Shown: in pieces, positions 515 to 25,189 of the stretch
Layout: each line of letters starts with the position of its first letter
How positions within the stretch are numbered: position 1 is the first letter of the stretch
NCBI GenBank assembly: GCA_036630325.1
Contig: CP142730.1
Coordinates: 806,001-870,000 of the forward strand
Source of the DNA: Vairimorpha necatrix
Lineage: Eukaryota
Length of the DNA stretch: 64,000 nt
Direction of reading: 5' to 3'
The notes under the pieces: model-generated
Database searches by the model: none
The model's input: only the letters and a program-made list of their open reading frames with translations
Told to the model about the DNA's origin: nothing
Translations under genes and position numbers: made by a program

Positions 515-683
515 AAATAGAACGTATTCTATAATGAATAGGCAGAATGAGTTGCTGCATAAGCGACATTCTCCACTAGACACATTGGCTCTACTTAATG
601 TAAGACTTAAATAATAACTTAATTCTCGAAATTATAGAGCTACTCTACATATGCGCCGACGGAGCATATTAGGGTCTATTTTT
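515..683. ncRNA. Candidate structured non-coding RNA, family unidentified
   Basis: Locally GC-richer island in an AT-rich intergenic region. Visible helices: ATAGAA/TTCTAT; GAATG-GTTGCT/AGCGAC-ATTC (545-571); TAGAC 577-581/GTCTA 674-678, enclosing GGCTCTA 587-593/TAGAGCT 635-641 and ATATGC 649-654/GCATAT 664-669. Ends in a T-run. Confidence 0.35.
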
Positions 684-2480: not shown

Positions 2481-2651
2481 TAAATAACATTTGTATCAAC
2501 ACACTATTTTTATAAAATTATATAAAAATTTAAAACAGTGTATCTAAGAATAGCATATTTAGATCGACTATATACTTAACATTATAATATTTAAAAAACA
2601 TATATTGCTAGTGCATAGACTTTCCATTACCATATGTAAAATTCAAATATC

Positions 2652-2717
2652 TTTACAATACTCGCTTATTATTTTTACAATACTCGCTTATTATTTTTAC
2701 AATACTCGCTTATTATT
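2652..2717. repeat. 22-bp tandem repeat x3 (TTTACAATACTCGCTTATTATT)
   Basis: Three exact copies directly after the stop codon of the minus-strand gene. Confidence 0.9.
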
Positions 2718-2719
2718 TT

Positions 2720-5182
2720 TTACTCCTCTAATTTCCATATACTGTTCCCTACAGTCAAACAGTACAAAATCGACTTATTAATTTCTAAAGAGTTCTCTGT
2801 AAAACAGACAATTTCTTCATCAACTTCATAAATCTCTATTATATTTGGTTTTAAATCCAAAGTCACAATCTTCCCCTCTGCAGATAAAATGATTTTATTA
2901 TTCCAAATATATCCCGAGTTATATTTCGTCTTAAAAAGACTACTTTTTACAGATTTATGTCTCTTTTTATAGTTTTCTTTATCTTCTTCGTAATTAGTCG
3001 TAAGATCAAGCCATTCTTCATTTACTAAGTCGTAAATAAAGAAGCCTTTAAAATAGTCAATGAATAAAATCATGTCTCCTTTGACACAGGCGTCTTTGAT
3101 AATTCCTTTTTCATATTTGATTATCTTTTTGTCTACTGTAAATTCATTATAGTAGACTTTTATCCTTTGATCACAATAGATGATTTTTCTATTTATACAC
3201 TCTTGAGAAAGAGTCTTAGTTTTAGTATTAAATCTTATTATATTGTCATTAGTCAACATTGAATATTCCTTATTTTTATATTCTAATAATCTCAGGGTAC
3301 TATTACTATGATGCTTTAAGATGTCATAATTCTTGGCGAAGTTGTCGTATTTTAAAAGGCCATTGGTGTCTACGCTGAATATCTTAGACCCTTTCTTATC
3401 CATACACAGTAACTTATTATTATTACTAATATATTTATAAGATAAATCACTAAATGTTACTCTGTATAATTTACCCTTGACCAAGATATAGTAAATATCC
3501 TGATATTTCTGGATGAACTTTATATTTTTGAGATCTAGAAAAGTCGCCTGACTTGTCGGATCAGATAATTTGACCGTAAAAGTCCCGAGAAGGAAAAGAT
3601 GATCAGAAGAAATCATATTTTTTACACTATCAAATTTCAAGGCACAAGTAAAAGCATTCATTTCTACGTCGTACACATTCAGGAAATCTTCAGTATCTAA
3701 AAAGTACAAATTTCCCCGGTGGATTGTAGACATTAAAAATGTGTCTTTTTTGTTTCTAGAAATTAAATCCAGACTGCTGTCATAAATCGAGAATTCATTA
3801 TTGTAAGTACTGACATAAATATTATTCTTATAATAAATGATACATGAAATATCAAATATCTCAAGACTGTGTCCTCCGCATTTGAGTTTGCCTTCTTCTG
3901 TGTAGTAAACAAATTTGTCCTGATCAAATGAACACAATAAAATATCCTCATTTAAATCTATCACATCCATTTTATCTTTAAGTTTGTGTATCTTAGACTT
4001 AGAATAAAAGTACAAAGTATCATCATATTCATAAAACCCTGTGACATTATAATTTAATGACTCGATATTCGCACTAAGTTCAGAACTTATAATATTACTT
4101 GATAAATCAAAATCTCTAAATTCTGTCAAATTTTCATACGTAGAAATGAAAATCCCTCGGAAGAAGTAAAAAGACTGCAAATTTGTGCAGTCTGTAATAT
4201 TCACAGTTTTACACATCTGGAAATTACTCAGCATGCTCATAAACTTATCATTGTAGAAATACAATCTTTTATCATTATAAATACTCCTGTTTAAATTGCT
4301 TATCGAATCAAGACTCTGAATAATTTCTATCTCGTCATTTTTAATATTAAAAATCTGACAATATCCACAAGTAGTGTGTCCTAAAATTAAATTGTCTACT
4401 AGTACGAGATTATTAAAAGTATTCAACTCGAATACTTTGACTATAATCATATTTTCATTCTCTACTGAAATCTTTATCAATTCATTATCTTTCATACTCA
4501 AAATAAGATTTCCTTCATAAATTACACTACTCGTAATTTTAGTATTCCCAAATTCTGTCTCTGCGACTTTCTTATTATTTATTTCATACCATACAAGTCC
4601 CTCATTTATCAAAATGTATCCTTGATTAAATGCATAAATAGCCATGCAAGATTTCTTTATCTTTTTTGTAAGACTAAATTTATTATTATATCTCAAAATA
4701 TAAGTCGTATCTTCTACATCTCTAGCCACAATATTCAAAATATTCCCACAGAAATCATAATGAAGTAAAGTGAAAAAATCCAAATCATTTGGCACATCAT
4801 CTTCTAAAAGTCTGTCTTTTGTAAAATGATACATTTTAAGTCCTTCATCAGAATAAAATATTACAAGATTTGACCATACATGATATTTCTCATAATATTT
4901 TATATTTACATTTTCCAAATTTATCTTCTTTAAATTATAGACCTTTTTATTAATTGAATATTCAAAATTACAAATTTGATATTTGTTTTTTCCAATTAAA
5001 ATTAAAATATTCTCAGAATATTTTACTAATTTGTAAGTGTAGAAATCTAAAGATAAAGAAGATAAGAATGATAATTTTGTATCATAAAATTCTAGATGTG
5101 TTGATTTGTTACATATGATTATTTTTCCTATGTTTGTCATGTCGGATATTTTAGTATTTTTTTGAATTCTGGAAATTGTCAT
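2720..5182 (-). CDS. Large beta-propeller protein, DDB1/Rse1(SF3B3)/CPSF160 family-like
   Basis: ~820 aa, beta-rich. The segment ITSSVIYEGNLILSMKDNEL...NNLVLVDNLILGHTTCGYCQIF...IIQSLDSISNL resembles the MMS1_N propeller pattern. Start moved to the ATG at 5182, which is preceded by CCCC. Confidence 0.6.
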   Translation of the reverse strand: MTISRIQKNTKISDMTNIGKIIICNKSTHLEFYDTKLSFLSSLSLDFYTYKLVKYSENILILIGKNKYQICNFEYSINKKVYNLKKINLENVNIKYYEKYHVWSNLVIFYSDEGLKMYHFTKDRLLEDDVPNDLDFFTLLHYDFCGNILNIVARDVEDTTYILRYNNKFSLTKKIKKSCMAIYAFNQGYILINEGLVWYEINNKKVAETEFGNTKITSSVIYEGNLILSMKDNELIKISVENENMIIVKVFELNTFNNLVLVDNLILGHTTCGYCQIFNIKNDEIEIIQSLDSISNLNRSIYNDKRLYFYNDKFMSMLSNFQMCKTVNITDCTNLQSFYFFRGIFISTYENLTEFRDFDLSSNIISSELSANIESLNYNVTGFYEYDDTLYFYSKSKIHKLKDKMDVIDLNEDILLCSFDQDKFVYYTEEGKLKCGGHSLEIFDISCIIYYKNNIYVSTYNNEFSIYDSSLDLISRNKKDTFLMSTIHRGNLYFLDTEDFLNVYDVEMNAFTCALKFDSVKNMISSDHLFLLGTFTVKLSDPTSQATFLDLKNIKFIQKYQDIYYILVKGKLYRVTFSDLSYKYISNNNKLLCMDKKGSKIFSVDTNGLLKYDNFAKNYDILKHHSNSTLRLLEYKNKEYSMLTNDNIIRFNTKTKTLSQECINRKIIYCDQRIKVYYNEFTVDKKIIKYEKGIIKDACVKGDMILFIDYFKGFFIYDLVNEEWLDLTTNYEEDKENYKKRHKSVKSSLFKTKYNSGYIWNNKIILSAEGKIVTLDLKPNIIEIYEVDEEIVCFTENSLEINKSILYCLTVGNSIWKLEE

Positions 5183-5293
5183 CTTGGGGTCAGAAAATAT
5201 TTTATGCAATTTTTCGTTTCTTTTATATTTTTTTGCATAAACAGTTTGTTTGTTTTTACCAACAAAGTCCTTTATTTCAAGAATACCCTTAGT

Positions 5294-5578
5294 ATGGGTA
5301 TTCTTGATTATTATACTAGTGAGAATGTTAAGATTTGTAAAAATATGACATTTGATGAGAATTTAGAAATAAATTCTAATTTTTCGTATTTTTCAGTATA
5401 TGATGCGTATTTTAATGATATTGAAGATAAGAAGTCTTATGATATTTGGACTGAGGTTGGTATTTTAGAAGATGTTGAGATTAAAGAAGTCCCTTTGAAT
5501 TTTGCTAATTTGTATAAGAAGATTGGGAATAAGCACATGTATAAAAGATTTATGAAGGAACACTATCGATCCATATAA
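5294..5578 (+). CDS. Small hypothetical protein (~94 aa)
   Basis: ATG at 5294 follows a CCC motif (ATACCCTTAGTATG). Divergent from the propeller gene. Coding-like composition from MGILDYY onward. Confidence 0.65.
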   Translation: MGILDYYTSENVKICKNMTFDENLEINSNFSYFSVYDAYFNDIEDKKSYDIWTEVGILEDVEIKEVPLNFANLYKKIGNKHMYKRFMKEHYRSI

Positions 5579-5733
5579 AAAAAAAAAAGAAAGTTTTAAA
5601 ATTAATATTTTATTTATAATATTTTTTAAGTTAAATATATATGAGATAAATATTTTTTTTAAATAAAAACTCTTTAAATTACAACTAGTATATTTTATAT
5701 CAGTATATTTTTAAATAGATGTATATTTTATAT

Positions 5734-6087
5734 TTATTTCCTTATAAATTTTAATATTCTTTCTTTACACTCTTCATTTATTTCTTTCTTTGTTATTAAC
5801 ATACACAAATATTTTATATAAAAATTAAATCTCAAGATTCTTTCTTTAATAATTTCTTCTTTTAATTTCCAGAATTTCTTCTTTGGGAATGTTGGCAGTT
5901 CTTTGATTTCTTTTTTGACTTGTTCGTGTAGATCTCTGAATTCAGAGTATCTTTTATAAATTACTTGATGATTCTTCATGTTCGGGATATTTGTGACTAT
6001 AATTATTTCATAGACAGTGTAACTATTTGATACACATTTCGACCCAGAAATGTACCCTTCTATGATTTCTTCTTTTAGTAGATGCAT
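5734..6087 (-). CDS. PX-domain-only protein (Snx3-like sorting nexin)
   Basis: PX signature YTVYEI...KRYSEFRDLH...LPTFPKK...ER. Confidence 0.88.
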   Translation of the reverse strand: MHLLKEEIIEGYISGSKCVSNSYTVYEIIIVTNIPNMKNHQVIYKRYSEFRDLHEQVKKEIKELPTFPKKKFWKLKEEIIKERILRFNFYIKYLCMLITKKEINEECKERILKFIRK

Positions 6088-6234
6088 GTTTATTATTGTA
6101 GTAAGTTTTTATGATACATATGAAACAGTAATCTAATGAAGATTGATTTAATTCAAAGTTGCTTAATTCAAAGTTGCTTAATTTGTTTGTTAAAATTGCT
6201 TAATTTGTTTGTTGAAAAATTAAGCATTTATAAA

Positions 6235-6325
6235 GGTGCATGATATTTATGCATAATATAACATGCATAAATCTAAGCCGCATAAATATAACATGCATAA
6301 ATTTAACATGCAGTGCATAAATTAA
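6235..6325. promoter_or_regulatory. Cluster of (AT)GCATAA motifs upstream of the PX gene
   Basis: Five GCATAA copies in ~80 bp; the same motif is clustered at 7680-7830. Confidence 0.35.
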
Positions 6326-6363
6326 ATTCTTTTATATATTATTTCATTATAAAACTCCAAGTT

Positions 6364-7083
6364 TTATCTCCTTATGACCCAGAAGAATATTCCCAGTATA
6401 ATCCAGAACATAAAGAATTTTATCATTGTTTTTCTTGTGCTTGTTATTCCTTCTATTCCTCTTTTTAAAATATAAATGCTATTATCTATAAATCTGTCAC
6501 TTTCCTCCATTAATTCGTCTATCTTTTTAAAGCTTTCTTCTTGTAATGAGACATGTATTCCTATTTCTTCCATTAAATTCCCTATTTCTGATATTTGTTT
6601 ATTTATTTCTTGATTTCTCAATCTGACATTATTTTCTTCTTGTAAATTTATTTGTTCATTAAGTAGTTCTTGTTTATTTATTTCTTCTTCTTTATTTTTA
6701 AATTCGCCTGGTTCATTTTTATATTCGTCTGGTTCATTTTTATGCTTTCTTAAATATTTGATTATTTCTAATTTGTGCTCATTTATTCTACTTTTTAATA
6801 TATTATAAATTGTATTATAAACTTCTTCTTCTTGATTATTTTGATATTCAATATTCTCTTCTTGAATCTTCTTTGATATTTCTGTACATTTTTCTTGTAT
6901 TTCTTTAATTTTATTTCTTATATTAAATTTCTCATATTTACTTTTTTTAATTTCTAATAAAGTGGTTTTTATGTTTCTTTCTTTTTTAAAAAGGTCTTTT
7001 AGATCATTTTTAAGATATTTGTGTGATTTCTGGGGGATATTTGTAGTTTGGACAATTTTATAGAATTCATTTGTTCTATTCAT
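6364..7083 (-). CDS. SED5: Qa-SNARE syntaxin, Sed5/syntaxin-5-like
   Basis: N-terminal MNRTNEF (Sed5 RDRTxEF-type), SNARE helix QISEIGNLMEEIGIHVSLQEESFKKID and a C-terminal TM. Start reassigned to 7083 (TACCCCCATG). Confidence 0.8.
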   Translation of the reverse strand: MNRTNEFYKIVQTTNIPQKSHKYLKNDLKDLFKKERNIKTTLLEIKKSKYEKFNIRNKIKEIQEKCTEISKKIQEENIEYQNNQEEEVYNTIYNILKSRINEHKLEIIKYLRKHKNEPDEYKNEPGEFKNKEEEINKQELLNEQINLQEENNVRLRNQEINKQISEIGNLMEEIGIHVSLQEESFKKIDELMEESDRFIDNSIYILKRGIEGITSTRKTMIKFFMFWIILGIFFWVIRR

Positions 7084-7234
7084 GGGGGTACTAAAAAAAC
7101 ATAACATCATATTATATTTTATAAGATATGTAAATAAGATCATATAATATTTACATATTACATATTTATAGTTTAAACATAACATATGTTATTTACATAT
7201 GTACTAATATGATCTTTTTGCCCTTCTTTTTAAA

Positions 7235-7651
7235 ATGGACTTCGCTGAGACTAAATCTTTTGTCATTTTATTTTCTTATGATTTATCTCTAGACACTACA
7301 AAGATAAATCTAATAGACAAAAGGTCTCTCTTCATTTCTCCATCTCAGACTATAAAACTCTACAGGGAAGTGACGCATATTCAAGCCATAAAAATAAACA
7401 GGAAATCTATAGAGATAATCTTAATTAAAGAAACACCATTTAAGTGGTACAGTCTCCAGGGACCAGAGAAGATAAAAGAAACAAGACAAAATAAAGAAGA
7501 AGAGGAGGAAGAAGAAGAGAATAATGACATTATACATGTACTGAGCAGAATATACGAGAATGGGGATGAGAACACGAGGAGAGCCATGGAGAAATCACTG
7601 ATAGAAAGCAAAGGGACGGAACTAAGCACAAACTGGGAAGACAAGAAATAA
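7235..7651 (+). CDS. SGT1: Minimal Sgt1-like co-chaperone (CS remnant plus SGS domain)
   Basis: SGS motif IYENGDENTRRAMEKSLIESKGTELSTNW; CS-like end IEIILIKETPFKWYSL. Confidence 0.88.
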   Translation: MDFAETKSFVILFSYDLSLDTTKINLIDKRSLFISPSQTIKLYREVTHIQAIKINRKSIEIILIKETPFKWYSLQGPEKIKETRQNKEEEEEEEENNDIIHVLSRIYENGDENTRRAMEKSLIESKGTELSTNWEDKK

Positions 7652-9429: not shown

Positions 9430-10794
9430 ATGGAAATCGGTCTTATTGGTTTGGGAAACATGGGAAGAAACCTGGCGAAAAATCTAGACGATAAAAATTA
9501 TAAACTTCATGTCTACAACAGAACTTATTCAAAAACTGAATCTTTAATAAAAAATCATCCAAAAATAATTCCTCATAAAAATATAAAAGACCTTATTTCT
9601 AATATAAAAACGAAAAAAATAATTTTTATTATGTTGACTGCAGGCAACATAATCGACCAAATCTTGGACGAATTATCAAATTTTTTAAACGAAGAAGACG
9701 TGGCGATTGATCTAGGAAATTCATATTTTAAAGATACAATACGACGAACTAAAAATTACAAATTTAATTTCGTCGGCGCAGGTATTTCAGGCGGGGAACT
9801 CGGTGCAAGACATGGTGGGTCTATTATGGTAGGATGTAAAGAACATGTTTGGAAATTATTGAAAAAAGTTTTTGATGATATTTCGACAGACTCGCAAATT
9901 TCTAATATGAAATGTTGTGAAAGATTCGGAGACGACGGCGCAGGCCATTTTGTCAAAATGGTTCATAACGGGATTGAGTATTGTGATATGGATATTATTG
10001 CTGAATGTTTTAATATATTAAAAAATATGAAAAAAGATAACAAATACATCTCTGATTTGTTTTTAAAATGGAATGATAATGATTTGAAAAGTTATTTATT
10101 AGAAATAGCAGGTAAAATTTTAATTAAAAAAGAAAATAATGAATTTTTAATTGATAAAGTAGAAGATTCTGCTCAGCAAAAAGGCACAGGGAAGGCGTGC
10201 ATCACAGAAGCAGTAGAATTGAATGTCCCTGCTATAACAGTGGTAGAATCAACCTTTTCTAGAGTGATCAGCTCAAGAAAAAGTGTCAGGGACGAATTGA
10301 GCACTAAATGGTTTTTTGAAAGTAAAGAGTCCTGTGATTTAAGCGAAGAAGATATTCATAATAGTATTTATCTCTGTAGAGCTATTTCTTATGTACAAGG
10401 ATTTAATTTACTAAATATCGCATCTGATAATTACAAATGGGACAAAGACCTCAGCAAAGTGTGCGATGTCTGGAGCAATGGCTGCATTTTACGAGGAACA
10501 TTTCTTAAAACTATGAAAGAAATTACAAGTGAGACTAAAGAAGATTTTGAGTTAAGTGAAACATTCGCTAAAATTTTTAATAAGAATATTTACAGTCTAA
10601 AGAATCTTGTAAAATATTCTACATTGAAAGGTATTCCTATACCGACAATATCTTCATGTTATAATTATGTATTGGGTATGAGAGAAAAAGAGAGTAATGG
10701 GAATATGATACAGTGTATGAGAGACTGCTTTGGAGGACATACAGTGATATTTAAAGGAGAGAAAGATCCAAAACATATTGAATGGCTTGAATAA
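9430..10794 (+). CDS. GND1: 6-phosphogluconate dehydrogenase, decarboxylating
   Basis: Motifs GLIGLGNMG, YNRT, GISGGELGARHG, GAGHFVKMVHNGIEY, QKGTG, QCMRDCFGGH. Confidence 0.98.
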   Translation: MEIGLIGLGNMGRNLAKNLDDKNYKLHVYNRTYSKTESLIKNHPKIIPHKNIKDLISNIKTKKIIFIMLTAGNIIDQILDELSNFLNEEDVAIDLGNSYFKDTIRRTKNYKFNFVGAGISGGELGARHGGSIMVGCKEHVWKLLKKVFDDISTDSQISNMKCCERFGDDGAGHFVKMVHNGIEYCDMDIIAECFNILKNMKKDNKYISDLFLKWNDNDLKSYLLEIAGKILIKKENNEFLIDKVEDSAQQKGTGKACITEAVELNVPAITVVESTFSRVISSRKSVRDELSTKWFFESKESCDLSEEDIHNSIYLCRAISYVQGFNLLNIASDNYKWDKDLSKVCDVWSNGCILRGTFLKTMKEITSETKEDFELSETFAKIFNKNIYSLKNLVKYSTLKGIPIPTISSCYNYVLGMREKESNGNMIQCMRDCFGGHTVIFKGEKDPKHIEWLE

Positions 10795-11718: not shown

Positions 11719-12648
11719 ATGCGGCTAGTAAGGACTCAAAAAGAATACGATCAAATTGTAGCTTTCCTCAAGGGGGAGATTTCCCCTAAGGAAGTTGGCT
11801 CTAAAAAAAAATTTCATCTAAAAAAGAAGTCTGAATATTTCATTCTTATAGACGACATTCTTTTCCTTAAAGTTTCAAATGGAGCCCATAAAAAAGTATT
11901 AGTAACAGATGATTTGGAAACTCTAAAGGAAGAAGCACGGAAGATCCATAACCAAGGCCATTTAGACTCTTTTCGTCTCTTTAAAAGGTGCACAGAATTA
12001 TATCATAATATTCCAAGAAGTATTACAAAAGAGGTGTTCGGGGAATGCGATGTCTGCAACGGGCATCTTCCCAAAGTTGAGGAAAAAAGTAACGAACTTT
12101 TGGCTTATAGACCTTTTGAAAGGATAATACTTGATCTTGTCGATATGAAGTCTTATAGCGACCAAAATGATGGGATGAGTTGGATACTCACGGCGTTAGA
12201 TGTACGCACAAAGTACGCTTATACATCTGCCTTGGAGACCAAAGCTCCCGTCGAAATAGTAGCACAATTAGAAAAGACCTTCTACATGCTGGGCTTTCCT
12301 AGTGTGCTTCAATGTGAAAGAATACAGGAGTTTAGGGATACAAAAATGGTAGAATTTTGCAAAAAACATAAAATATTGCTTATTAATCAAAGGCGGTGTG
12401 ATTCCCAGTATAGCAGGCAGATTAAGAGGTTTATACAGACTCTTAATAGATATCTGCAGAAGCATCTGCACGGGGAAACAGGGGCAAATAGTAAGAGGTG
12501 GACTATGATTATTAATAAAGTTGTTTATGACTATAACACTGCCGTACATTCTACTACGAGAAAGTCGCCTTTTATGTTACTCTTTGGAAGACTTGGATAT
12601 AACACGTGCATGAGCATTGATGAAGAAGGGGAAGAAGAGGAAGAGTAA
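11719..12648 (+). CDS. Integrase-derived protein (H2C2 zinc finger plus rve fold, KRBA2/SCAND3/Ginger-like), catalytic residues altered
   Basis: HNQGH...CDVC; ERIILDLVDM; LQCERIQEF in place of LQSDNGxEF; QIKRFIQTL in place of xVERxNxTL; YNTAVHSTTRKSPF. Start context CCCCAATG; acidic tail; no LTR or TIR seen. Confidence 0.85.
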   Translation: MRLVRTQKEYDQIVAFLKGEISPKEVGSKKKFHLKKKSEYFILIDDILFLKVSNGAHKKVLVTDDLETLKEEARKIHNQGHLDSFRLFKRCTELYHNIPRSITKEVFGECDVCNGHLPKVEEKSNELLAYRPFERIILDLVDMKSYSDQNDGMSWILTALDVRTKYAYTSALETKAPVEIVAQLEKTFYMLGFPSVLQCERIQEFRDTKMVEFCKKHKILLINQRRCDSQYSRQIKRFIQTLNRYLQKHLHGETGANSKRWTMIINKVVYDYNTAVHSTTRKSPFMLLFGRLGYNTCMSIDEEGEEEEE

Positions 12649-13689
12649 TTTATGGGATTATAGAAAGTTAAAAATAAATTAAAGTTAATTAGAAAAATAA
12701 AATTTTAATAAATGAAAATTATGTTTTATTTGTGCAACAATATTTTGATTTTTAAAAAGTCTAAAAATAAAATGCTTCTTAAAATAAATTTAAATTTAGT
12801 CAAAAATGGGTATAAATTTTTTTCTGGAGAAAAATAACTACTGTTTGTTTATAGTCTTATTATATTATGGATAAAATTTTTCACTTTAATAAGAATTTAC
12901 AGTTTTATTTATGTTATTATAGCTTAATCTTACAATAAATCCATAAACATGTCATAATTCAAATTAAAAACCAAACAAATTTTTAATGAATTTATTTATA
13001 AAAAATGATAAAAACATGTGTTAAACTAGCTATATAGAGGCAAAAATTAGTTGGATAGTATAGGAGCTTATACTTGATTCGAAGGTTTATATATAACATG
13101 CCCGTACTTAATTAAATGTAAGTTCTTCTTTAATCAAGAAATACTCTTGGGCGTTCGATTCAAGACCAAATGACATATTTAGATATAGCGTTCTCCCTTA
13201 TTTTACTATATTTCTAGAAGAAGTTACAAATCTGTTACGTATGAAATAATCAAGCCTATATATAGGGCGGCGGAACTCCCTCGCCCGTATTTTCTTTATT
13301 TTTTTAAATACATAAGCAGCGTGTTGGTTTTACTTTTTTTGTGAGAAATTTGCTTAAAGATATTGTATCTATAATTATAACAAAAACTTTTTGATCTATC
13401 GTCAAAAATAAGTCCAGACTTACACGAGACAAGTACGGCTGGAAAAGGCAAATCTAAAACACAGTGAAATATTACTTTTAATCGAATATTAACTAAAATA
13501 ATGTCGTACGTTTAATGTTATTAAGTATAAATTCCATGTACAAAATACATATACATGATCATTTGTATTCTTTACAAAAGCGGACACATTCAATATAATT
13601 TTAAAGGTCTAGGTGTAATTCATTGTTTTGGGATTAAAAATTTATTTTTAGATCTATAAAAGAAGAACGATAACTATTACGTAAAAAAA

Positions 13690-14480
13690 GATGCCCTTAA
13701 CCAGTGGTAGAAGGCAATGCTTTTATTACGCAGTGGCTGGGTTCGATTCCCAGGGCACCAAATTGTTTCTACTTTCTATGATGCAGTTGGAACAACTCAG
13801 ATGATGAAAATGTCCACGATAATCATTAAGTTGATTCGATGAAACTTGTGTGTGTCCAGCCACAAGGGGATAAGCATATAGTGTAGAAACGCACCTCGGG
13901 GCCAAAAAACAGTATCACCCTTGTGGTGACATAATGATACATAAAAGTAACTAATGGGTACGGCCTAGTTGGAGCCCATGGCCGGTGCGCTCTAGAGTGG
14001 TATCCTAGAGCTAACTAAAAGACTAGACGAAGTAGGGCAATAGAAGGTCTCGTGGACCCTATCCTACAAGATCCTGTAACACGGTGGCCGAAACTAGTGG
14101 GAGACTGGTGGTCAACGCAGCCCAATAAAAAACGCCGGGCTGGTGATGTGGTCGTGTAAGGAGCCGCGTGTGCAATACGGATGATTGTGGAGACCTTTGA
14201 GTCATACGATAATGTCTCTCCTCGGGTTATAGATAGCCATTCACGTTAAGAATATCCGCTGTGAGGTCACTCTGGACGCGATTTGAGGTATAAATGGAAA
14301 GTGTCCTCCTTGAGCCAAAGTCCAATGGACACGGCGGAGCCTTCTGCAACGGCAAGTTGTATTGAGGGAGCTTTAGTGAGTAAGAATCTCACAGTACCAG
14401 TTAGATGAGGATCACACCCTTTTCCCTCTGGTCCCTATGTAAGGTTTCTCCCTACCTCTTACTTGCAAGAGAAAAAAAAA
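13690..14480 (+). mobile_element. tRNA-headed SINE-like element with a long structured body and A-tail
   Basis: tRNA-like head 13690-13760 (box A-like TAACCAGTGG 13698-13707, box B GGTTCGATTCC 13740-13750, ends ACCA). ~700-nt GC-balanced body with many helices, terminal hairpin CTCTT/AAGAG and A9 at 14472-14480. No ORF in the track. Confidence 0.7.
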
Positions 14481-14832
14481 TACAATTTTTTGGGTACTAT
14501 ATTTTTTCATCACCATATGGTTAATCATTCATTGTATTTTAGGGACCAAAATACGGGAGTTCATACCAATACCATACAAGGTAATTGGCGTTCACTAAAA
14601 AATTCTATACTTAATAGAAATAGATCAGTTAATAGTGCAAAACTTTATTTATTTAAATATATGCTCCAGAGAAATAATTCCAATTCTGTTTTTGATGCAT
14701 TATTAAATTAATTGTTCTAATATTAATTTTTGTTCCTTCCTCAACATTTTCTCTCCCCCATTTTGGAAAAAAGCGGCAAAAAACACAAAAAACCCCATAT
14801 CGAAATTTGCGTGCTAAAGTGGACTTTAGCCC
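14481..14832 (+). pseudogene. 3' fragment of a Merlin/IS1016(ISXO2)-type transposase with a probable element end
   Basis: VNHSLYFRDQNTGVHTNTIQGNWRSLK matches the Merlin VNHS...GVHTNxIEGxW motif. Confidence 0.75.
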
Positions 14833-15347
14833 ATTTATTATCTTATGGGACAATTTTAAATTATGTAAGATTGATGAGCATGGATTTATAAAATAAGTGT
14901 TGTACGTAAAACTGTTATTAGAAAACATGTTGTTATTTTTTACGGAATTTATAGTCCAAATATCACATGCAAATATCTTGTATCGAATGTCATTTGATAA
15001 ATAATTGGATGAGATTTGACATGTTATACTACCAACAATAAGTTACCAATTTGACAGCAAAAATCAATCATTTTATATTCATGTGTTTATTTGCTTTGAT
15101 TTTGAAATCAAGTCATGGGCAGATGTCAAATGTTTTGAAAAATTTGATATATTAACAAAGACAATAAAACCTTATTTTTAAAAGTTTAAATTTTTTTTCA
15201 TATATAACACTAAACTTATACACAATCTAAATTGTATATATTGATTGATCATCGCAATATTTTGCTAAAATGTTTGTTCAAAAATCAATTTAAATTTTTT
15301 TTAAAGATCATCTAGTTCCGTATAAAAATAAATTTTCTTTTTTCCCC

Positions 15348-17570
15348 ATGAAAATTTTTACTTATTTATCTGTATTATTTTTTACACGAGAATGTCAACA
15401 TGTGTATAATAAGCTTAATACTGCAATAATAAATAAAATAGATGAAGGAGACTACTGCACAATAAATTTAGAAAAACGATACATGATAGTCTACTTATCT
15501 GAAGACTATTTATCATCCGGGACTGAACTAGACATAAAAATAAAAATTTACAATTCTAATAATGAACTAAAATGTCATACTATAAAAATTAAACAGGGTT
15601 ACAAAGAACCTAAAGATTTGTTCCATGAGATTGAAGACAATATATTAAATGCACATATAAAGTACAACCCTAACCATATCATATTAATATACAGTAAGGA
15701 AAAGTTTAGGTCGTCAGAAATTTTTAAGAAAATAATCATGCTATTAAAAGAAGCAAATAATAAGATCAAAGAAAATTTTTTTAAGCCGGATTTTTATTAT
15801 ACATACATTATTAGAAGTGATTTTTTGTGGGGAAGAATGTTTGAAAAAATAAGAGACTTTAGTATTGATGGAAATGATGAACCAATTAAAATCCCCGTTA
15901 TATATGTAAGAAGGAAGGATAAAGATGTTAAACGTCGTATAAATCTATGTATTAGAGCCGAAAAAATATTTTATTTTTTTGAAATCAATCTTCAAGAACT
16001 TGATCCCGAAAAGCTTGTATCTTTGTTTGAGTGGAAATCTTCTTATGTTAATAATCCCGAAAAAAAGATAGGTACTTATTTTTACGATTTACATAAGCTC
16101 GTATATGTTAGTGAGATTGATACAAGGCCTTCATGTTTCTGGATTTGTACATCTAAAAAAATTACTATGGCCAAAACTAAATTTAAAATTTTTATGTTAA
16201 AAGATAAAATAAAATTTAAACAGAAGGCTGGAGATTTCATTTATTCACTGAATACAAATTCAAACGTTAACAGTACAACAATGATTATTAAAAATGAAAT
16301 TTTTACGGAATTTAAAGAAATATTTAAAGAAATATCTGTAATAGAAAATGAAGACATTATTGTAAAAAGTATTGGTATGTTATATAAAGTTATGGAAAAG
16401 GGAAACAAATTATTGTTTCTACTAGGAAGAATTCTTAGTAGGCCAGGCGCAGCTTTAAATATAATCTTTGCCCATTTTTTATTGCATCATGGAATAATAG
16501 ATGGAAATGAACTAAATAAAATAATAGGAAAAGATGAACAAGCTGAATTTAACAAGACCCAACTTTTAGAAAAAATATTAAAACATACGCCCAATTTTTA
16601 TTCAATTAAATTTTGTCTACTCTTGGAATTCGAACGCTACATAAATGAAAATGACGTTAAACACGACAAAATATTTAGTACATTTATTAAAATTTGGGAT
16701 CTTATTCGATTAAAAGAGCAAAATCAATCGAAATCTTCGATTGATCCATACAAAAAACTAGGAAAAGATAATATTTATGTTACAAAATTATATTATGAAG
16801 TTTTAGGTTGGCATAATATCGATATTAAAGAATTTAAATATGACGTATGGCTTCATATTCTAAAGTTAGCAACATTATTTACAGAATCAGAAAATAATTA
16901 TTGTGAGTGTAAATGGGTCAAATGTGATACCATAAAAAACGACATCATAACTAATTATAAATTGAAAAAAAACGATATATTACAGAATAATGAACTAATT
17001 AGAGCAAAATTACTAGGAAGTACGCGAAAAGATTCTGAAAAAGAAAAATCTATGAAAATAATACAAAAAATACACAAACTAATACAAAGAGTTTCATTAA
17101 ATAAAATACTAACAGTTGATTCAAATAAAGAAGTAAAAAATATATTTTATGATAAAGTAAGTTTAAAATTTGAAAAGGAGTTAAGAGAAGAAGGCATAAA
17201 AGCAATGGAAGAAATATATAATAATTTAAGAATAAAAGTATTATTTAGAAAAATTGAAATTGTAAATCCAAATTTAGTAAATGAATATAAAAACAAGGAA
17301 ATAGAAAACTTCTTTCACAAATTAAATCTCAATATAAAAGCTAATATAGAAAGAAGTTGCGTAAGTGAATTGCCAAAGATTGTTAAAACATTATTAGAAT
17401 GTGAAATAAAAAATAATAAAACACTAAAAGCAAGACATCAACTAAGCATAAAGAAAATTAGAAAGAAGTTGCCTATAAAAAAAAAATTACATATTTTTAA
17501 CGAAGTTTCGGGCATTAAATTGCATGATGAATCTGTAAAAGTAATAGAAGACAAAATTTTTTCGATCTAA
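15348..17570 (+). CDS. ~740-aa signal-peptide protein, expanded family paralogue 1
   Basis: Hydrophobic N-terminus. Shares YNKLN..I.NKI, YxFE, KxCLxxExExYINEND and terminal GxxLHxxxxKV with the ORFs at 21144, 27257-33441 and 40536. Start context CCCCATG. Confidence 0.88.
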   Translation: MKIFTYLSVLFFTRECQHVYNKLNTAIINKIDEGDYCTINLEKRYMIVYLSEDYLSSGTELDIKIKIYNSNNELKCHTIKIKQGYKEPKDLFHEIEDNILNAHIKYNPNHIILIYSKEKFRSSEIFKKIIMLLKEANNKIKENFFKPDFYYTYIIRSDFLWGRMFEKIRDFSIDGNDEPIKIPVIYVRRKDKDVKRRINLCIRAEKIFYFFEINLQELDPEKLVSLFEWKSSYVNNPEKKIGTYFYDLHKLVYVSEIDTRPSCFWICTSKKITMAKTKFKIFMLKDKIKFKQKAGDFIYSLNTNSNVNSTTMIIKNEIFTEFKEIFKEISVIENEDIIVKSIGMLYKVMEKGNKLLFLLGRILSRPGAALNIIFAHFLLHHGIIDGNELNKIIGKDEQAEFNKTQLLEKILKHTPNFYSIKFCLLLEFERYINENDVKHDKIFSTFIKIWDLIRLKEQNQSKSSIDPYKKLGKDNIYVTKLYYEVLGWHNIDIKEFKYDVWLHILKLATLFTESENNYCECKWVKCDTIKNDIITNYKLKKNDILQNNELIRAKLLGSTRKDSEKEKSMKIIQKIHKLIQRVSLNKILTVDSNKEVKNIFYDKVSLKFEKELREEGIKAMEEIYNNLRIKVLFRKIEIVNPNLVNEYKNKEIENFFHKLNLNIKANIERSCVSELPKIVKTLLECEIKNNKTLKARHQLSIKKIRKKLPIKKKLHIFNEVSGIKLHDESVKVIEDKIFSI

Positions 17571-21143: not shown

Positions 21144-23387
21144 TTATTTATTATCTTTATTAATTGCTAAAACTTTTATCAAATCATTGTGTAACCCTAT
21201 TCCAGGGGTTCCATTTAAAACTTCAAACAAATCTTTTTCATTCAACAAAGATCGAATAATAGTTAAGTATTTTTCACAGCTTTCTTTTCTAGATTTAACA
21301 GAGTTAAATAATTTTATTAAAGCTTTTGGTAAATTTTGTTTGGCTTTATTTATTCTATTTTTATTTACATTAGATGTTATGTATTTTTTAAAACATTGCT
21401 TTAATTTTCTCTTATAATCATTGACTAGTTTTTCGTTATTGTTTAGTGCGAATATTTTTTTAATGTAGGTTGTTTCTTTTTTAAACACATGTTTTTCAAA
21501 TATGTATTCGATTATCTTAATTCCTTCCTTTATTAGTGCATTTTCAAATTCAAGTCTAACATTTTCATCAAATATATTTTCTACGTTTTTAATTAAAGCA
21601 TTCATAAGTTTTTCATTCAATAATTGTTTTAAAGATGTTTTTTGCAATATTTTCGTTATTTTCAGTGTTCTTATTTCTTTAATTTTTCTTCGTTTTTCAA
21701 AAATTTTATCTTCCCGATTATTTTCAAACAATTTTTTTGATATGCCTTTGCTACATTTGCTTATTTCAATTTTATCTAATCCAAGAGATTCAATAATTTC
21801 ATCTTTGGTGAGACTTATCTCATCATATCTACTTTTATACTTACTTAATCCTATGAATAATGAAGTTATTTTACACACATGTTTAATGAACTCTATTTTG
21901 TAGTTTATAATATTATCGATTTGAATATTTACCACTTCTTGTATAATTTTCGCAATTCTAATATTTTCTCTTTTACTTTTCATTGTGGCACCATTTGTAT
22001 TATTTTTTGTATCAATAAAATTACCAATCTCCTTTAAAGTAATAAATAACGGGCAGTCAATTACGTCATTTTCATTTATAAAATTCTCTGCCTCAATTAA
22101 TAGACAAATTTTTATTAAAAAAAATTCTAAACGTCTAGTTACAGGAGAAATTGTCGATATAATATATATAACATTTTCTATCATTTGTTCTTTTTCGTTG
22201 TTCTGCCTCTTTCCTATTAATGTATGAAAACTATACGATTTTATCAGTTTGCCGTACATTAATAAATGTGCAAATATTAATTTTAGAGCAGATCTTGGTG
22301 GTTTGAAAATTCTCATAACCAAAAAATCTATTTTTTTATTTTTGACTAACAATCCAAAAAACATTTCCACTCCTTTACCACTGTCATTGTTTTTAATTGC
22401 TTTGATATTTTCCAAAACTTCTTGAAGTTTAGAAAAACATTGATTCTCAATATAAGTTTTGCTACCATATTGTTTTGAGTCATCTTTTATGCAGTATAAA
22501 TGTTCAATAGACCCATCATTAATACTTAAACTATGTGAATGCAATTCGATTTTCAAATACGGATATTCTATTTCGATTATTCTAGGCGTACATTTTAGTT
22601 GACGCGGCACAGAATAAGTATCAAGCAAATTTACATCATGTGTTTTATAAAATACAAGCAGTTTTTTAAAAATTTCTTCATCAAATTTATTCTTAAGATT
22701 TATATTAAAATTTTTTAAATATTGAAATTTGTCCATATCAAAATCTTTGACATCCAATTCAAATAAATAATGAACATTCTCTATGCTCATGCGAAATCTG
22801 ACAAACAATCCATTATTTTCCAGAATGTAATAAATCCGAGCAGCAATAGCACTAAAATCACGTCCTTTGATATCTATACCATTTTTAATTTCATTGAGCA
22901 CTTCAGCTAAATAACTATTGTTATCACATATATTGTCATAATAAATTTCCCAACCGTTCTTATTTTCTCTTCTCTCTTGGTTAATATTACTAATATTTTC
23001 TATAACATCTTTAAAAAATGAACAATTTTTAATAGTTATTGAGTCATATATTAAGTTAACTGACTCTTCAATTGGAAATTTCAACATACTTCCTAAATAT
23101 ACTTCAATGTCTTCAGTGATGTCAATCAGAGATTTGTCTTCATAGAGAAACATAAAATTCCTTGTAATTTTTTTACTATCATCAGATAAATTTTGTTCTA
23201 TGTCTAAGTGTATCATTTTTTCACTTTCAATAAAACGGATAGTCACTTTAGTAATGGGTTTCTTAGGTATATAAATAGAATATTCTCTGTTTATTATTTT
23301 GTTCATTATAATATTACTGATTTCATTGGACATTATCTGGTTAGTTCGAATACGTATAAATGAAAAAAAAAATATCGAAAGTTTCAT
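21144..23387 (-). CDS. ~747-aa signal-peptide protein, family paralogue 2
   Basis: Same family motifs (YLFELDV, IKICLLIEAENFINENDVID, GIGLHNDLIKVL). Confidence 0.88.
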   Translation of the reverse strand: MKLSIFFFSFIRIRTNQIMSNEISNIIMNKIINREYSIYIPKKPITKVTIRFIESEKMIHLDIEQNLSDDSKKITRNFMFLYEDKSLIDITEDIEVYLGSMLKFPIEESVNLIYDSITIKNCSFFKDVIENISNINQERRENKNGWEIYYDNICDNNSYLAEVLNEIKNGIDIKGRDFSAIAARIYYILENNGLFVRFRMSIENVHYLFELDVKDFDMDKFQYLKNFNINLKNKFDEEIFKKLLVFYKTHDVNLLDTYSVPRQLKCTPRIIEIEYPYLKIELHSHSLSINDGSIEHLYCIKDDSKQYGSKTYIENQCFSKLQEVLENIKAIKNNDSGKGVEMFFGLLVKNKKIDFLVMRIFKPPRSALKLIFAHLLMYGKLIKSYSFHTLIGKRQNNEKEQMIENVIYIISTISPVTRRLEFFLIKICLLIEAENFINENDVIDCPLFITLKEIGNFIDTKNNTNGATMKSKRENIRIAKIIQEVVNIQIDNIINYKIEFIKHVCKITSLFIGLSKYKSRYDEISLTKDEIIESLGLDKIEISKCSKGISKKLFENNREDKIFEKRRKIKEIRTLKITKILQKTSLKQLLNEKLMNALIKNVENIFDENVRLEFENALIKEGIKIIEYIFEKHVFKKETTYIKKIFALNNNEKLVNDYKRKLKQCFKKYITSNVNKNRINKAKQNLPKALIKLFNSVKSRKESCEKYLTIIRSLLNEKDLFEVLNGTPGIGLHNDLIKVLAINKDNK

Positions 23388-23952
23388 TTAGGATAAAAAA
23401 TCTGATTTTTTAATATATATAAATATAAATTGTAGCAATAAAAATAATGATAAAGATTTTCTATTTAAATATAAAATATATCATAAATATTTATTTGAAG
23501 AATAAAATATGAAAAGTAAGATTTCAATTTATGACAAGCAATTATAATAATCCTCAATTTCTTAAAAAATAATATAATAATATATTTAAAAAACTGGTTA
23601 AGTAAATTGCAACATTAGGATAATATGTGTAAAACAATGCTTATTTGCTTAAATATGTTAAGTACACTATAGTTTCATTTACATTTATCAAAAGTTGTAG
23701 CACATAAATTTTATGCCTTGAGAATCTAGACCAATTCTGAACAGCCCAAATGAATTCTCTAGTTAAAAACAATCAAATATATTTAAATACGCGAAGACAA
23801 AATATTGTTCAAATATTTATCAAAAATTTAATTGAGTATTTTGATATGTTTAGGATTAAATATAAATTCTAAATTGTATTGTTTTTTGTATCATATTTCT
23901 GTGCATAATAAGATGCGTTTTCGGTTGGGTTTAGTTGAAAAAAATGGAGGGA

Positions 23953-25189
23953 GGTACCACAATACCCCTCCCCCCTCTGGGGGTGTTTACTTTATTTTTT
24001 CGAACCCCAAAATCGAAGTGCAAAAAAGGAGGAGCAGGAAGGGGACAAAAACTACTAGAACTTTATGAAAGTAAAAATACATAATAAAATGACTTAAAAT
24101 TGAATTTCAACCCAAATTTTGTCTCTAAATATATGATATAAAAAAATTAAAATTTATACAAATTTATCTACTTTATCCTAGTTTTTATTTAATAGCCCTT
24201 AAAAATGACAGATCTCTATAAGGATGTCGAGAAAATAATGGAAAAAATGATTTTAAGTACATTAGAAGGCAGATTTTGCCCATTATGTCTTGGAAATGTA
24301 CATCGACGTTTGGAAATACAAAATCAAATGCGTTGTACCACAAAAAGCTGTCGAAAAGAATATACAATAACTAAAAAGAAGCCTTTATTATGCTTAATTG
24401 TCTTGGTTAAAAATATGCCAGGTTCTATATCTATTGTTTGAAAATACAACTTTCAGAATGGTAAAAAACCTACTTAATATCCACAAAAAACAATCTATAG
24501 AATTATCAGAAAATGTAGTATACATATATTGTTAATATTATTATTGGAGGACCAGGTATAATTGTTGAAATGACGAATCTAAATTCGGAAAGAGACAAAA
24601 CAACAAAGGCCACAAAGTTGACGGTGTGTGGGTAATTGGGATGGTAAAAAGAACAGCCGAAAAAAGTCTAGTGCTTCTAAAAGTAAAAAATAGAAAAGCC
24701 GAAACTCTTGAAAGATAAATAAAAAAATATGTAAGTCCCGGAAGTATTATATTTAGTGACTGTTGGAAAGGTTATATAAATTTAAATCAATTGGGGTTTT
24801 AAAAACACATCACTGTTAACCATTCTCTTGGTTTTATAAATCCAGAGAAGGGTGTTCATACTAATTCGATTGAAGGGAGATGGGCTGGTGTTAAAAGAAT
24901 GATTCCTGCCAGAAATCCGACTGAAAAGGAAATAAATCGTTATCTTCATTTTTTTACTTTAAAAGAAATAATCCCATAAATACGTTCGAAATGTTAATAT
25001 AAAAGACATTTTACTACCACATCTTAATTTAAAATCAATTTTTGTATCTAAAAATATAATTAATTACTATTTTTACTATCATAAAGTTCTAGTAATTTTT
25101 GTCCCCTTCCTGCTCCTCCTTTTTTTGCACTTCGATTTTGGGGTTCGAAAAAATAAAGTAAACACCCTCAGAGGGGGTACTGTGGTTGC
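23953..25189 (+). mobile_element. Merlin-type DNA transposon with ~120-bp TIRs and a decayed transposase
   Basis: TIRs ~23953-24080 and ~25068-25189 are near-identical in inverted orientation. The interior gives CPLC...C, IGGPGIIVE/DESKFGKR, DGVWVIG, SDCWKGY, VNHS and GVHTNSIEGRW, with stops and frameshifts. No TSD found. Confidence 0.9.

What the first reader, a model, noticed from the sequence alone, without database searches (positions are those of the whole stretch)
13690..14480. tRNA-headed, ~790-nt densely structured A-tailed element (SINE-like Pol III RNA)
Seen: an abrupt GC-balanced island starting with a non-functional tRNA-like unit (perfect box B, T-arm CTGGG/CCCAG, 9-nt anticodon loop, mismatched acceptor). 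A non-coding body follows, with helices CCACAAGGG 13860-68/CCCTTGTGG 13918-26, GCTCTAG 13989-95/CTAGAGC 14005-11, GTAGG/CCTAC enclosing GGTC/GACC, CAGCCC/GGGCTG, GTGTCC/GGACAC, GTGAG/CTCAC and a possible pseudoknot at 13954-13989. It ends in a terminal hairpin and A9. Established: tRNA head + body + A-tail defines SINEs, which are usually shorter. Inference: an unusual long SINE or parasitic structured RNA, possibly with a ribozyme or RT-recruiting domain. From memory only, the TTTAGTGAGTAAGAATCTCACA hairpin resembles 3' tails of arthropod LINE/SINE repeats, which raises possible host-parasite transfer.
Basis: partly seen in the sequence, partly recalled or inferred. Interest (0 to 1): 0.8.

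Follow-up and report, generated by a model that had tools for sequence, protein, structure and literature searches.

The report
Foreign SINE-like retroposon in a microsporidian
A 791-base GC-balanced island in an AT-rich microsporidian genome is one non-coding copy of a tRNA-headed, A-tailed retroposon that is highly repeated in other organisms, so it is most likely a dead, horizontally acquired mobile element rather than a structured functional RNA.

Summary
The sequence features are real. There is a GC island (46.6% against 24-26% in the flanks), a degenerate tRNA-like head with a perfect box B, a non-coding body and an A9 tail. The claim of dense structure is not supported: the fold z-score is -1.21 and stem counts match shuffles. 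Rfam and ARAGORN find nothing. The window is microsporidian: its 6PGD is 59% identical to that of Nosema granulosis. The element is single-copy in the window. Laid on public contigs, however, its body matches 278 contigs in coded organism A and 450 in coded organism B at 80-99% identity. Summed depths are very high, tRNA-like heads lie upstream and poly-A lies downstream. One bat-gut metagenome contig bridges the 5' junction with 0 differences in 237 bases. The 3' flank is a truncated Merlin/IS1595 transposase remnant. Best reading: one inert, horizontally acquired copy of a long SINE-like retroposon. At 782 nt without the tail it exceeds SINEBase's <700 bp criterion. The donor, the route of entry, the partner LINE and the copy number in this genome remain open. 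Interest is moderate.

The parts
13683..13689 (.). A7 run in the 5' flank, directly before the element. It could be one half of an A-only target-site duplication hidden in the tail.
   Evidence: No other shared word longer than 5 nt between the 40-nt flanks.
13690..13759 (+). Degenerate tRNA-like head: acceptor-like pairing with one A.C mismatch, an intact T-arm, and no D-stem (0 of 4 pairs by my reading). A TTTT run sits at 13721-13724.
   Evidence: ARAGORN finds none. Copies elsewhere also carry a tRNA-like 3' half directly before 13760: 11 contigs in X2 with a median of 73 loose letters, and 1 contig in X4.
13697..13707 (+). Box A-like motif TTAACCAGTGG. It matches 6 of the 9 specified positions of the recalled consensus TRGCNNAGTGG.
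   Evidence: for the sequence; the consensus is recalled, not from a tool.
13740..13750 (+). Box B, GGTTCGATTCC, a full match to the recalled consensus GGTTCGANNCC. It starts 43 nt after the start of box A.
13760..14471 (+). Non-coding body. It is colinear with repeat copies in other organisms. The segment around 14132-14214 is replaced by 80 unlike letters in one 1475-nt X3 contig.
   Evidence: overlapping pieces 13730-14065, 13800-14097, 13940-14116, 13967-14148, 14134-14308 and 14212-14398 in X2, and 13874-14131 plus 14215-14459 on one contig in X3. for the stop counts.
14372..14393 (+).
   Evidence: No differences within the stem appear among the 40 of 119 differences shown, so it neither supports nor refutes a structure.
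14402..14471 (+). 3' end region, the most abundant part in organism B (summed depth about 217,000-219,000 against 8,000-68,000 for most of the body). It is a candidate LINE-recognition tail. The TTTT at 14420-14423 is private to the window copy; other copies read A at 14420-14422.
   Evidence: tables 2 and 3
14472..14480 (+). A9 tail.
   Evidence: 17 X3 contigs run on behind 14480 with a longer A-run (table 7).
14481..14711 (+). Context, not part of the element: the C-terminal fragment of a Merlin/IS1595 (ISXO2-like) transposase, starting within 3 nt of the tail. It reads NTIQGNW where the window's second copy reads NSIEGRW. The 5' half of the gene is absent upstream.
   Evidence: Pfam PF12762, E = 2.6e-4, 21.5 bits, below the 27-bit cutoff. 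tblastn gives 40% identity over 57 aa to a second degenerate copy at 24797-24967. tblastx finds no upstream half. This stretch is also repeated in X2 and X3.

Best explanation
Window 13690-14480 is one full-length, probably inert copy of a long tRNA-headed, A-tailed, non-coding retroposon (SINE-like). The family is highly repeated in other, non-microsporidian-looking genomes. In its home genome such an element would be transcribed from the internal A/B-box promoter of its tRNA-derived head and copied into DNA by a partner LINE's reverse transcriptase primed on the A-tail; both steps are inferred from how SINEs work. This copy sits in a microsporidian chromosome next to a truncated Merlin transposase. 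It is most likely a horizontal acquisition from an animal, probably a host or host-associated one. It does nothing here beyond marking that event. The route of entry, as RNA copied inside the parasite or as DNA joined at a break, is not settled.
For: SHOWN. (1) The window is microsporidian. The intronless 6PGD at 9430-10794 has Nosema granulosis as its best named hit (59%), with Encephalitozoon at 45-49%; its own contig is 1.30 Mb. (2) The composition break is abrupt, 0.466 against 0.24-0.26 GC. (3) The element has a head with a perfect box B, a closed-frame body and an A9 tail. (4) It is a repeat family elsewhere. At >=80% likeness, 278 of 1,663,360 contigs of X2 laid on it (17/56/83/122 at >=99/95-99/90-95/<90%) and 450 of 2,671,266 of X3 (71/104/141/134). 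Summed depth reaches 949 in X2 and 219,021 in X3 inside the element, and 0-3 over 13500-13663. (5) The family's ends appear to coincide with the insert's ends. Eleven X2 contigs carry a median of 73 loose letters before 13760 that end in a tRNA-like 3' half. One X4 contig carries the T-arm and acceptor end with one extra base. Seventeen X3 contigs continue behind 14480 only as a longer A-run. (6) The nearest copies are 92-97% identical: X1 3/109, 14/307 and 15/185 differences; X4 4/121 and 9/197. That is too close for vertical descent between a microsporidian and any other lineage; this last step is inference. (7) The insertion is real at its 5' side: a 237-nt X1 contig covers 13541-13777 with 0 differences. 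(8) It is single-copy in the 64-kb window, and both flanks are unique there. (9) The longest records in X2 and X3 are 6,030 and 4,741 nt. No small genome is well assembled there, so the copies come from large, thinly covered genomes (inference). (10) Transfer of transposable elements between microsporidia and animals is documented for piggyBac, Merlin and mariner (passages read in PMC3614468, and PMC4202319).
Against: No clear target-site duplication: only A-runs flank the element, A7 upstream and A9 as the tail. The head itself is thinly covered by other copies (X2 1.5-74, X3 97-2,642 in 13664-13745), so heads elsewhere differ by more than 20% or are often missing. A TTTT at 13721-13724 inside the head would be expected to stop Pol III early (established knowledge; not tested here). 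At 782 nt without the tail it is longer than any of the 175 SINEBase families (75-662 nt) and above that database's <700 bp criterion (passages read in PMC3531059). Organisms A and B are coded, so 'animal' and 'host' are inferences. The copy number in the microsporidian's own genome is unknown because no genome is held. The window copy shows no AT-ward drift against the X3 copies (34 places GC>AT against 33 AT>GC), which leaves direction and age open. Other TEs in the window are also GC-richer than the background (0.35-0.38 across the Ty3/gypsy region), which weakens composition as an argument for foreign origin. The 3' junction is not independently bridged. X1 may not be independent of the window's source study.
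Confidence: 0.68

Rival explanations
1. It is a native microsporidian SINE-like family that is multi-copy elsewhere in this genome. The copies seen in other organisms would then come from transfer out of microsporidia or from infections.
For: Copy number in the full genome could not be examined. Transfers from microsporidia to animals have been proposed for Merlin elements (passage read in PMC4202319). Pan et al. list a 'SINE' class as 0.18% of the N. bombycis genome (Table 2 passage, PMC3614468). The TEs of this window are GC-richer than the background.
Against: One copy in 64 kb. GC is 0.466 against 0.273 for the window. Summed depths reach 219,021 in a run whose longest contig is 4,741 nt, which does not fit a small parasite genome. 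No non-LTR reverse transcriptase was found among the 16 ORFs scanned against Pfam.
Confidence: 0.15
2. It arrived as a piece of host DNA. A fragment holding a SINE next to a Merlin remnant would have been joined into the parasite chromosome at a break, as proposed for the SINE in a baculovirus. No retroposition inside the parasite is needed. This is a variant of the best explanation that differs only in the route of entry.
For: There is no clear target-site duplication. The adjoining Merlin fragment (14525-14700) is also repeated in X2 and X3, with depths of 23-305 and 539-7,390. Two foreign-looking repeats therefore lie side by side. The baculovirus SINE copy also lacks a TSD, and its authors suggested end-joining (passage read in PMC8010984).
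Against: The insert starts at the first base of the tRNA-like head and ends with an A-run, which a random break would rarely produce. Depth drops to 30 (X2) and 938 (X3) in 14484-14524, so the SINE and the Merlin are not one repeated unit elsewhere. Merlin is also a known resident of microsporidian genomes, and a second, 40%-identical copy lies in this window.
Confidence: 0.25
3. It is an assembly or contamination artefact: host repeat sequence wrongly placed in a microsporidian contig.
For: The element is foreign in composition, and its family is abundant in other organisms.
Against: It is a 791-nt island with AT-rich unique sequence on both sides, inside a 1.30-Mb contig. It lies 2.9 kb from 6PGD and 0.9 kb from a member of a window-specific paralogue family. 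A 237-nt contig from another run bridges the 5' junction with 0 differences.
Confidence: 0.05
4. It is a functional structured non-coding RNA: a ribozyme, an RT-recruiting RNA, or a Pol III gene of the parasite.
For: The T-arm and box B are intact. Several perfect short helices exist.
Against: The fold z-score is -1.21 and stem counts lie within shuffles. No Rfam family matches at E<=1 in 13000-15200. The 9-bp helix is broken by a 1-nt loss in most copies, and the 7-bp helix shows an uncompensated G>A at 13989. A TTTT lies 32 nt into the putative Pol III transcript.
Confidence: 0.03

Closest known systems
tRNA-derived SINEs with head, body and tail, as defined in SINEBase (Vassetzky & Kramerov 2013, PMC3531059; passages read)
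   Same: A tRNA-related head with A/B boxes, a non-coding body of unknown or LINE origin, an A-rich tail, very many diverged copies in some genomes, and variants with internal differences.
   Different: 782 nt without the tail, against 75-662 nt (mean 253) for the 175 families and the <700 bp criterion. Pol III transcription and a partner LINE are not shown. The head is strongly degenerate and carries an internal TTTT.
SlNPVSE1, a lepidopteran SINE copy inside the Spodoptera litura nucleopolyhedrovirus II genome (Han et al. 2021, PMC8010984; abstract and passages read)
   Same: A single SINE copy in the genome of an intracellular parasite, more than 90% identical to the host family, with no target-site duplication. 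It is read as host-to-parasite horizontal transfer.
   Different: The recipient here is a eukaryotic parasite (a microsporidian), not a virus. The donor species is not identified. The family is unrelated as far as can be told; the sequences were not compared.
Host-derived or exchanged DNA transposons in microsporidia: piggyBac in Nosema bombycis (PMC3614468, passages); Merlin, piggyBac and mariner in Anncaliia algerae (PMC4202319, passages); Lep1 Helitrons (PMC4038834, search listing and start of abstract only)
   Same: TE sequence shared between a microsporidian and animals at an identity that is incompatible with vertical descent.
   Different: Those are autonomous, or transposase- or Helitron-mobilised, DNA elements that can amplify after arrival. 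This is a non-autonomous retroposon that needs a matching LINE. 'SINE' occurs 0 times in the main text of PMC4202319 and of PMC7313128, and only as a 0.18% table row in PMC3614468.
Sauria SINE in a poxvirus genome (Piskurek & Okada 2007; recalled, and seen only as a one-line mention in PMC8010984)
   Same: A single retroposed SINE copy carried by a parasite of the SINE's home lineage.
   Different: A viral recipient. Details are recalled from memory and were not checked here.

Membership tests
tRNA-derived SINE (SINEBase definition) | Head derived from a tRNA and carrying an internal Pol III promoter (boxes A and B) | tested here: inconclusive
   Box B matches 11 of 11 positions at 13740-13750. 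The box A-like motif matches 6 of 9 specified positions at 13697-13707 (consensus recalled). Only the T-arm is picked up by tRNA-like Rfam models, at 9.7-13.4 bits. ARAGORN finds 0 tRNAs.
tRNA-derived SINE (SINEBase definition) | Short: <700 bp (known families are 75-662 nt without the tail) | tested here: not met
   13690-14471 is 782 nt without the A9 tail. The criterion comes from PMC3531059. For this reason I describe it as SINE-like and do not file it as a formal member.
tRNA-derived SINE (SINEBase definition) | Non-autonomous: no coding capacity | tested here: met
   9-19 stops in each of the six frames; the longest open stretch is 76 aa.
tRNA-derived SINE (SINEBase definition) | 3' tail of simple or A-rich repeats | tested here: met
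   A9 at 14472-14480. 17 X3 contigs extend behind 14480 as a longer A-run.
tRNA-derived SINE (SINEBase definition) | Many dispersed copies with common ends | tested here: inconclusive
   Met in other organisms: 278 contigs (X2) and 450 (X3), with heads of median 73 nt before 13760 and poly-A after 14480. In the window's own genome there is 1 copy in 64 kb, and the rest of the genome is not held. No individual copies could be fetched: 5 exact-pattern collection scans gave 0 hits.
tRNA-derived SINE (SINEBase definition) | Transcribed by RNA polymerase III | not testable with these tools
   No listed run holding the stretch is on record as RNA. A TTTT at 13721-13724 argues against full-length Pol III transcripts from this particular copy (inference).
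tRNA-derived SINE (SINEBase definition) | Reverse-transcribed by a partner LINE, often sharing its 3' end | not testable with these tools
   No eukaryotic repeat library or host genome is available. No non-LTR RT was found among the 16 window ORFs scanned against Pfam. The only hint is that the 3' end is 4-20 times more abundant than the middle of the body in X3.
tRNA-derived SINE (SINEBase definition) | Target-site duplication flanking the insert | tested here: inconclusive
   The 40-nt flanks share no word longer than 5 nt. An A-only duplication (A7 upstream, hidden within the A9) can be neither shown nor excluded.
Functional tRNA gene | Cloverleaf recognised by tRNA finders | tested here: not met
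   ARAGORN finds 0 genes in 64 kb. No tRNA-clan hit above 9.7 bits. The D-stem has 0 of 4 pairs and the anticodon loop is 9 nt (reading). The MFE fold is not a cloverleaf.
Known structured RNAs and self-cleaving ribozymes (Rfam 15) | Match to a covariance model | tested here: not met
   5 matches at E<=1 in 13000-15200, all far below their gathering scores. Two lie inside the element on the minus strand and one partly overlaps the head; none is a ribozyme or a tRNA.
Horizontally transferred transposable element | Sequence identity between distant lineages too high for vertical descent | tested here: inconclusive
   92-97% identity to contigs in X1 and X4, and 80-99% to hundreds of contigs in organisms A and B. 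However, those organisms are coded or are metagenomes, so their distance from microsporidia is inferred, not shown.

The most novel reading that the evidence does not exclude
The copy was made inside the parasite. On this reading, a host Pol III SINE transcript from the host cytoplasm reached the microsporidian nucleus, was reverse-transcribed by a parasite retroelement and was captured at a break that also removed the 5' half of a resident Merlin. That would account for the exact tRNA-head start, the A-tail and the missing TSD. It would be RNA-mediated host-to-parasite gene flow, and the first SINE traced into a microsporidian.
Probability: 0.2. Interest if true: 0.65.

Novelty: new member of a known kind. 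Interest (0 to 1): 0.38.

Why it matters
Microsporidia are known to exchange DNA transposons with animals. Non-autonomous retroposons rarely cross species, because they cannot move without a matching LINE. A precise, full-length SINE-like copy in a microsporidian chromosome is therefore a molecular footprint of contact with a particular animal lineage. Once the repeat family is named, it could help to identify the natural host of an unnamed parasite. It also raises a testable question: does host RNA, and not only host DNA, enter parasite genomes? The family itself is longer than any SINE listed in SINEBase in 2012, which may interest repeat curators. In the window itself it is probably an inert fossil.

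Tried and rejected
- The window's own genome is not held, so copy number, other insertions and resident LINEs could not be examined.
- Earlier findings of this scan returned nothing by place, sequence or words.
- Fetching individual copies failed. Exact-pattern scans with three 20-22-nt stretches of the element gave 0 hits in metagenome contigs, viral contigs and genome contigs. No alignment, covariance model or covariation test could therefore be made.
- The same three strings occur in 0 papers of the library.
- Run search: no listed holder is on record as RNA. All seven holders have small shares (0.05-0.17). Only X1-X4 were laid; the small shares in the unlaid freshwater, root and soil runs X5-X7 are not used as evidence.
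- Parts without cover, such as X1 at 14402-14442, are not interpreted.
- The 27 joints in X3 (15 shown) were first read as internal-deletion variants. For 14 of the 15 shown, 'between' is not known. One is a replacement by 80 unlike letters. They may therefore be divergent segments and not deletions.
- Protein route to the donor's name: the longest open frame of the element (76 aa, minus strand) shares no words with any protein. The Merlin fragment found no longer relative. The atlas gave only ISXO2-like clusters of mixed eukaryotes.
- An LTR plus primer-binding-site reading on the minus strand was considered and rejected. The similarity covers a whole tRNA length, including a D-loop-like AGTGGTAG, and copies elsewhere extend the plus-strand A-run.
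- Inverted repeats that might mark a 5' Merlin end upstream of the element: only AT-rich pairs of 72-94% were found, none convincing.
- Supplementary files of the papers are closed. TE lists in the supplements of PMC3614468 and PMC4202319 may name SINE families in microsporidia that I could not see.

Full report
WHAT IS IN THE SEQUENCE

Window 13690-14480 is 46.6% GC, between flanks of 24.1% (12650-13689) and 25.8% (14481-15347); the window as a whole is 27.3%. The first 70 bases look like a worn tRNA. There is an acceptor-like pairing with one A.C mismatch, a T-arm around a perfect box B (GGTTCGATTCC, 13740-13750), and a box A-like TTAACCAGTGG at 13697-13707. The box A-like motif matches 6 of the 9 specified positions of the consensus, which I recall from memory. 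No D-stem is present, and the anticodon-like loop has 9 nt.

ARAGORN calls no tRNA anywhere in the window. In a search restricted to 13675-13775, only the T-arm is recognised by tRNA-like Rfam models, at 9.7-13.4 bits. The body is non-coding: each of the six frames has 9-19 stops, and the longest open stretch is 76 aa. The unit ends in A9 at 14472-14480, and an A7 run lies directly before it at 13683-13689.

IS IT UNUSUALLY STRUCTURED? NO.

- The whole unit folds at -244.3 kcal/mol, against -234.2 +/- 8.3 for dinucleotide shuffles (z = -1.21; 1 of 20 shuffles folds as well).
- Nine 150-nt windows give z between -1.93 and +1.87.
- Perfect stems of 6, 7, 8 and 9 bp within 80 nt number 17, 5, 2 and 1. 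Shuffle means are 13.7, 3.3, 0.8 and 0.24, and 18-26% of 500 shuffles reach the observed counts.
- Rfam gives only five sub-threshold matches at E<=1 over 13000-15200, and none is a ribozyme.
- Where copies from elsewhere can be compared, they do not protect the helices. A base at 13923, in the 3' arm of the 9-bp helix, is missing in contigs that carry 53-100% of the depth in 4 of 4 runs. G13989, the first pair of the 7-bp helix, is A in nearly all copies, and no change at 14011 appears among the 40 of 119 differences shown.

WHERE THE WINDOW COMES FROM

The intronless 6-phosphogluconate dehydrogenase at 9430-10794 has Nosema granulosis as its best named relative (59%), followed by Encephalitozoon species (45-49%). 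Closer relatives (69-78%) are unnamed. The protein's own contig is 1.30 Mb. The window also holds a Ty3/gypsy polyprotein, an integrase-only ORF, two Merlin remnants and a family of roughly 740-aa proteins without Pfam domains. This is a TE-bearing microsporidian genome.

THE ELEMENT IS A REPEAT FAMILY ELSEWHERE

Within the window it is single-copy, and both flanks are unique. No public run holds more than 17% of its sampled words. I laid the contigs of four runs on 13500-14700 at >=80% likeness.

- In coded organism A (X2), 278 contigs matched. In coded organism B (X3), 450 matched. Identities spread from below 90% to 99% or more.
- Summed depths inside the element reach 949 (X2) and 219,021 (X3). 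Over 13500-13663 they are 0-3.
- Overlapping pieces tile 13730-14460 colinearly in both organisms, so the whole ~0.8-kb unit is the repeat and not a mosaic.
- Eleven X2 contigs carry a median of 73 further letters before 13760 that end like the 3' half of a tRNA. One root-metagenome contig (X4) carries the same T-arm and acceptor end with one extra base.
- Seventeen X3 contigs run on behind 14480 only as a longer A-run.
- The ends of the family therefore appear to coincide with the ends of the island.
- The longest contigs in X2 and X3 are 6.0 and 4.7 kb. These look like thinly covered large genomes in which only repeats assemble (inference).
- The closest copies are in a bat-gut metagenome (X1) and a root metagenome (X4), at 92-97% identity over 109-307 nt.

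IS THE INSERTION REAL?

A 237-nt contig from X1 covers 13541-13777, that is 149 nt of AT-rich flank plus 88 nt of the head, with no difference. The island is embedded in a long contig with unique AT-rich sequence and parasite genes on both sides. The 3' junction has no such independent bridge. X1 may also not be fully independent of the window's source.

THE NEIGHBOUR

Directly after the tail, from 14484 (where the related X1 contig starts to match) to the stop at 14711, lies the last ~76 aa of a Merlin/IS1595 transposase. The Pfam match (PF12762) has E = 2.6e-4 and falls below the curated cutoff. The fragment is 40% identical to a second degenerate copy at 24797-24967. It reads NTIQGNW where that second copy reads NSIEGRW. 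The upstream half of the gene is not present before the element, and no convincing inverted repeat marks a 5' end.

A related X1 contig carries 74 further letters upstream of 14484 that do not match the window. This Merlin stretch is itself repeated in X2 and X3 (depths of 23-305 and 539-7,390 over 14525-14700). Depth dips to 30 and 938 in 14484-14524, so the two repeats are not one unit elsewhere.

BEST EXPLANATION

This is one inert copy of a long, tRNA-headed, A-tailed, non-coding retroposon whose home is another, probably animal, genome. It was acquired horizontally by the microsporidian. How such elements work, namely Pol III transcription from the head and reverse transcription by a partner LINE primed on the tail, is established for SINEs and is inferred here, not shown.

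Two routes of entry remain open.

- Retroposition or cDNA capture inside the parasite. The exact head start and the A-tail favour this route. The missing TSD and the missing Merlin half would fit capture at a break.
- End-joining of a host DNA fragment, as was proposed for the TSD-less SINE copy in a baculovirus (PMC8010984, passages).

I give the overall reading 0.68. A resident microsporidian family gets 0.15, an assembly artefact 0.05 and a functional structured RNA 0.03. The DNA-fragment route is a variant within the main reading, at about 0.25 of all cases.

POINTS AGAINST

- No TSD can be shown.
- Heads elsewhere are thinly matched.
- A TTTT at 13721-13724 would be expected to stop Pol III in this copy. 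A second TTTT at 14420-14423 is private to it.
- The window copy is not AT-shifted relative to the X3 copies (34 against 33 places).
- Organisms A and B are coded, so the donor is not named.

COMPARISON WITH WHAT IS KNOWN

The element works like a tRNA-derived SINE. At 782 nt without the tail, however, it fails the SINEBase length criterion (<700 bp; known families are 75-662 nt, mean 253; PMC3531059, passages). I therefore call it SINE-like and do not file it as a formal member.

Exchange of TEs between microsporidia and animals is documented for piggyBac, Merlin and mariner (PMC3614468 and PMC4202319, passages). 'SINE' occurs 0 times in the main text of PMC4202319 and of PMC7313128, and only as a 0.18% class in a table of PMC3614468. 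Supplements were closed and may hold more. SINE copies in parasite genomes are known from a baculovirus and, from recall, a poxvirus.

VERDICT

It is a new member of a known kind and is of moderate interest. Its main value is as a marker of host contact and as a possible test case for RNA-level host-to-parasite transfer.

Noticed in passing
window 15348-17570 (+), 21144-23387 (-), 40536-42806 (-): Three ORFs of 740-756 aa, all AT-rich (about 24.5% GC), are 27-29% identical to one another over nearly their full length. None has a Pfam domain. They look like a lineage-specific paralogue family of the microsporidian.
   Followed up: partly
window 27700-33441 (-): An intact-looking 1913-aa Ty3/gypsy polyprotein (RVP, RVT_1, RNase H, integrase zinc-binding domain, rve) lies in a region of 0.35-0.38 GC. 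TEs in this genome are GC-richer than the background.
   Followed up: partly
window ~23930-25250: A second, frameshifted Merlin/IS1595 element. Transposase pieces lie at 24569-24718 and 24803-24979. Long terminal inverted repeats are suggested by matching translations at about 23931-24062 (-) and about 25079-25252. It is only 40% identical in protein to the fragment next to the SINE-like element.
   Followed up: partly
window 43857-46094 (+): A 745-aa ORF at 38% GC forms another GC-rich island. It has no Pfam match even at E<=0.1 and no similarity to the 740-aa family. It may be another mobile or acquired gene.
   Followed up: no
window 11719-12648 (+): A stand-alone 309-aa ORF has a weak integrase-core match (rve, E = 1.9e-5, below the cutoff). 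No reverse transcriptase lies nearby. It sits 1 kb upstream of the element and is either a retroelement remnant or a domesticated integrase.
   Followed up: no
window 13541-13777, against run X1 (bat gut metagenome): A contig identical over 237 nt to the parasite flank plus the head shows that this microsporidian, or a near-identical strain, occurs in that sample. Other contigs of the same run carry 92-97% identical copies of the repeat. Parasite and a possible donor may therefore co-occur there.
   Followed up: partly
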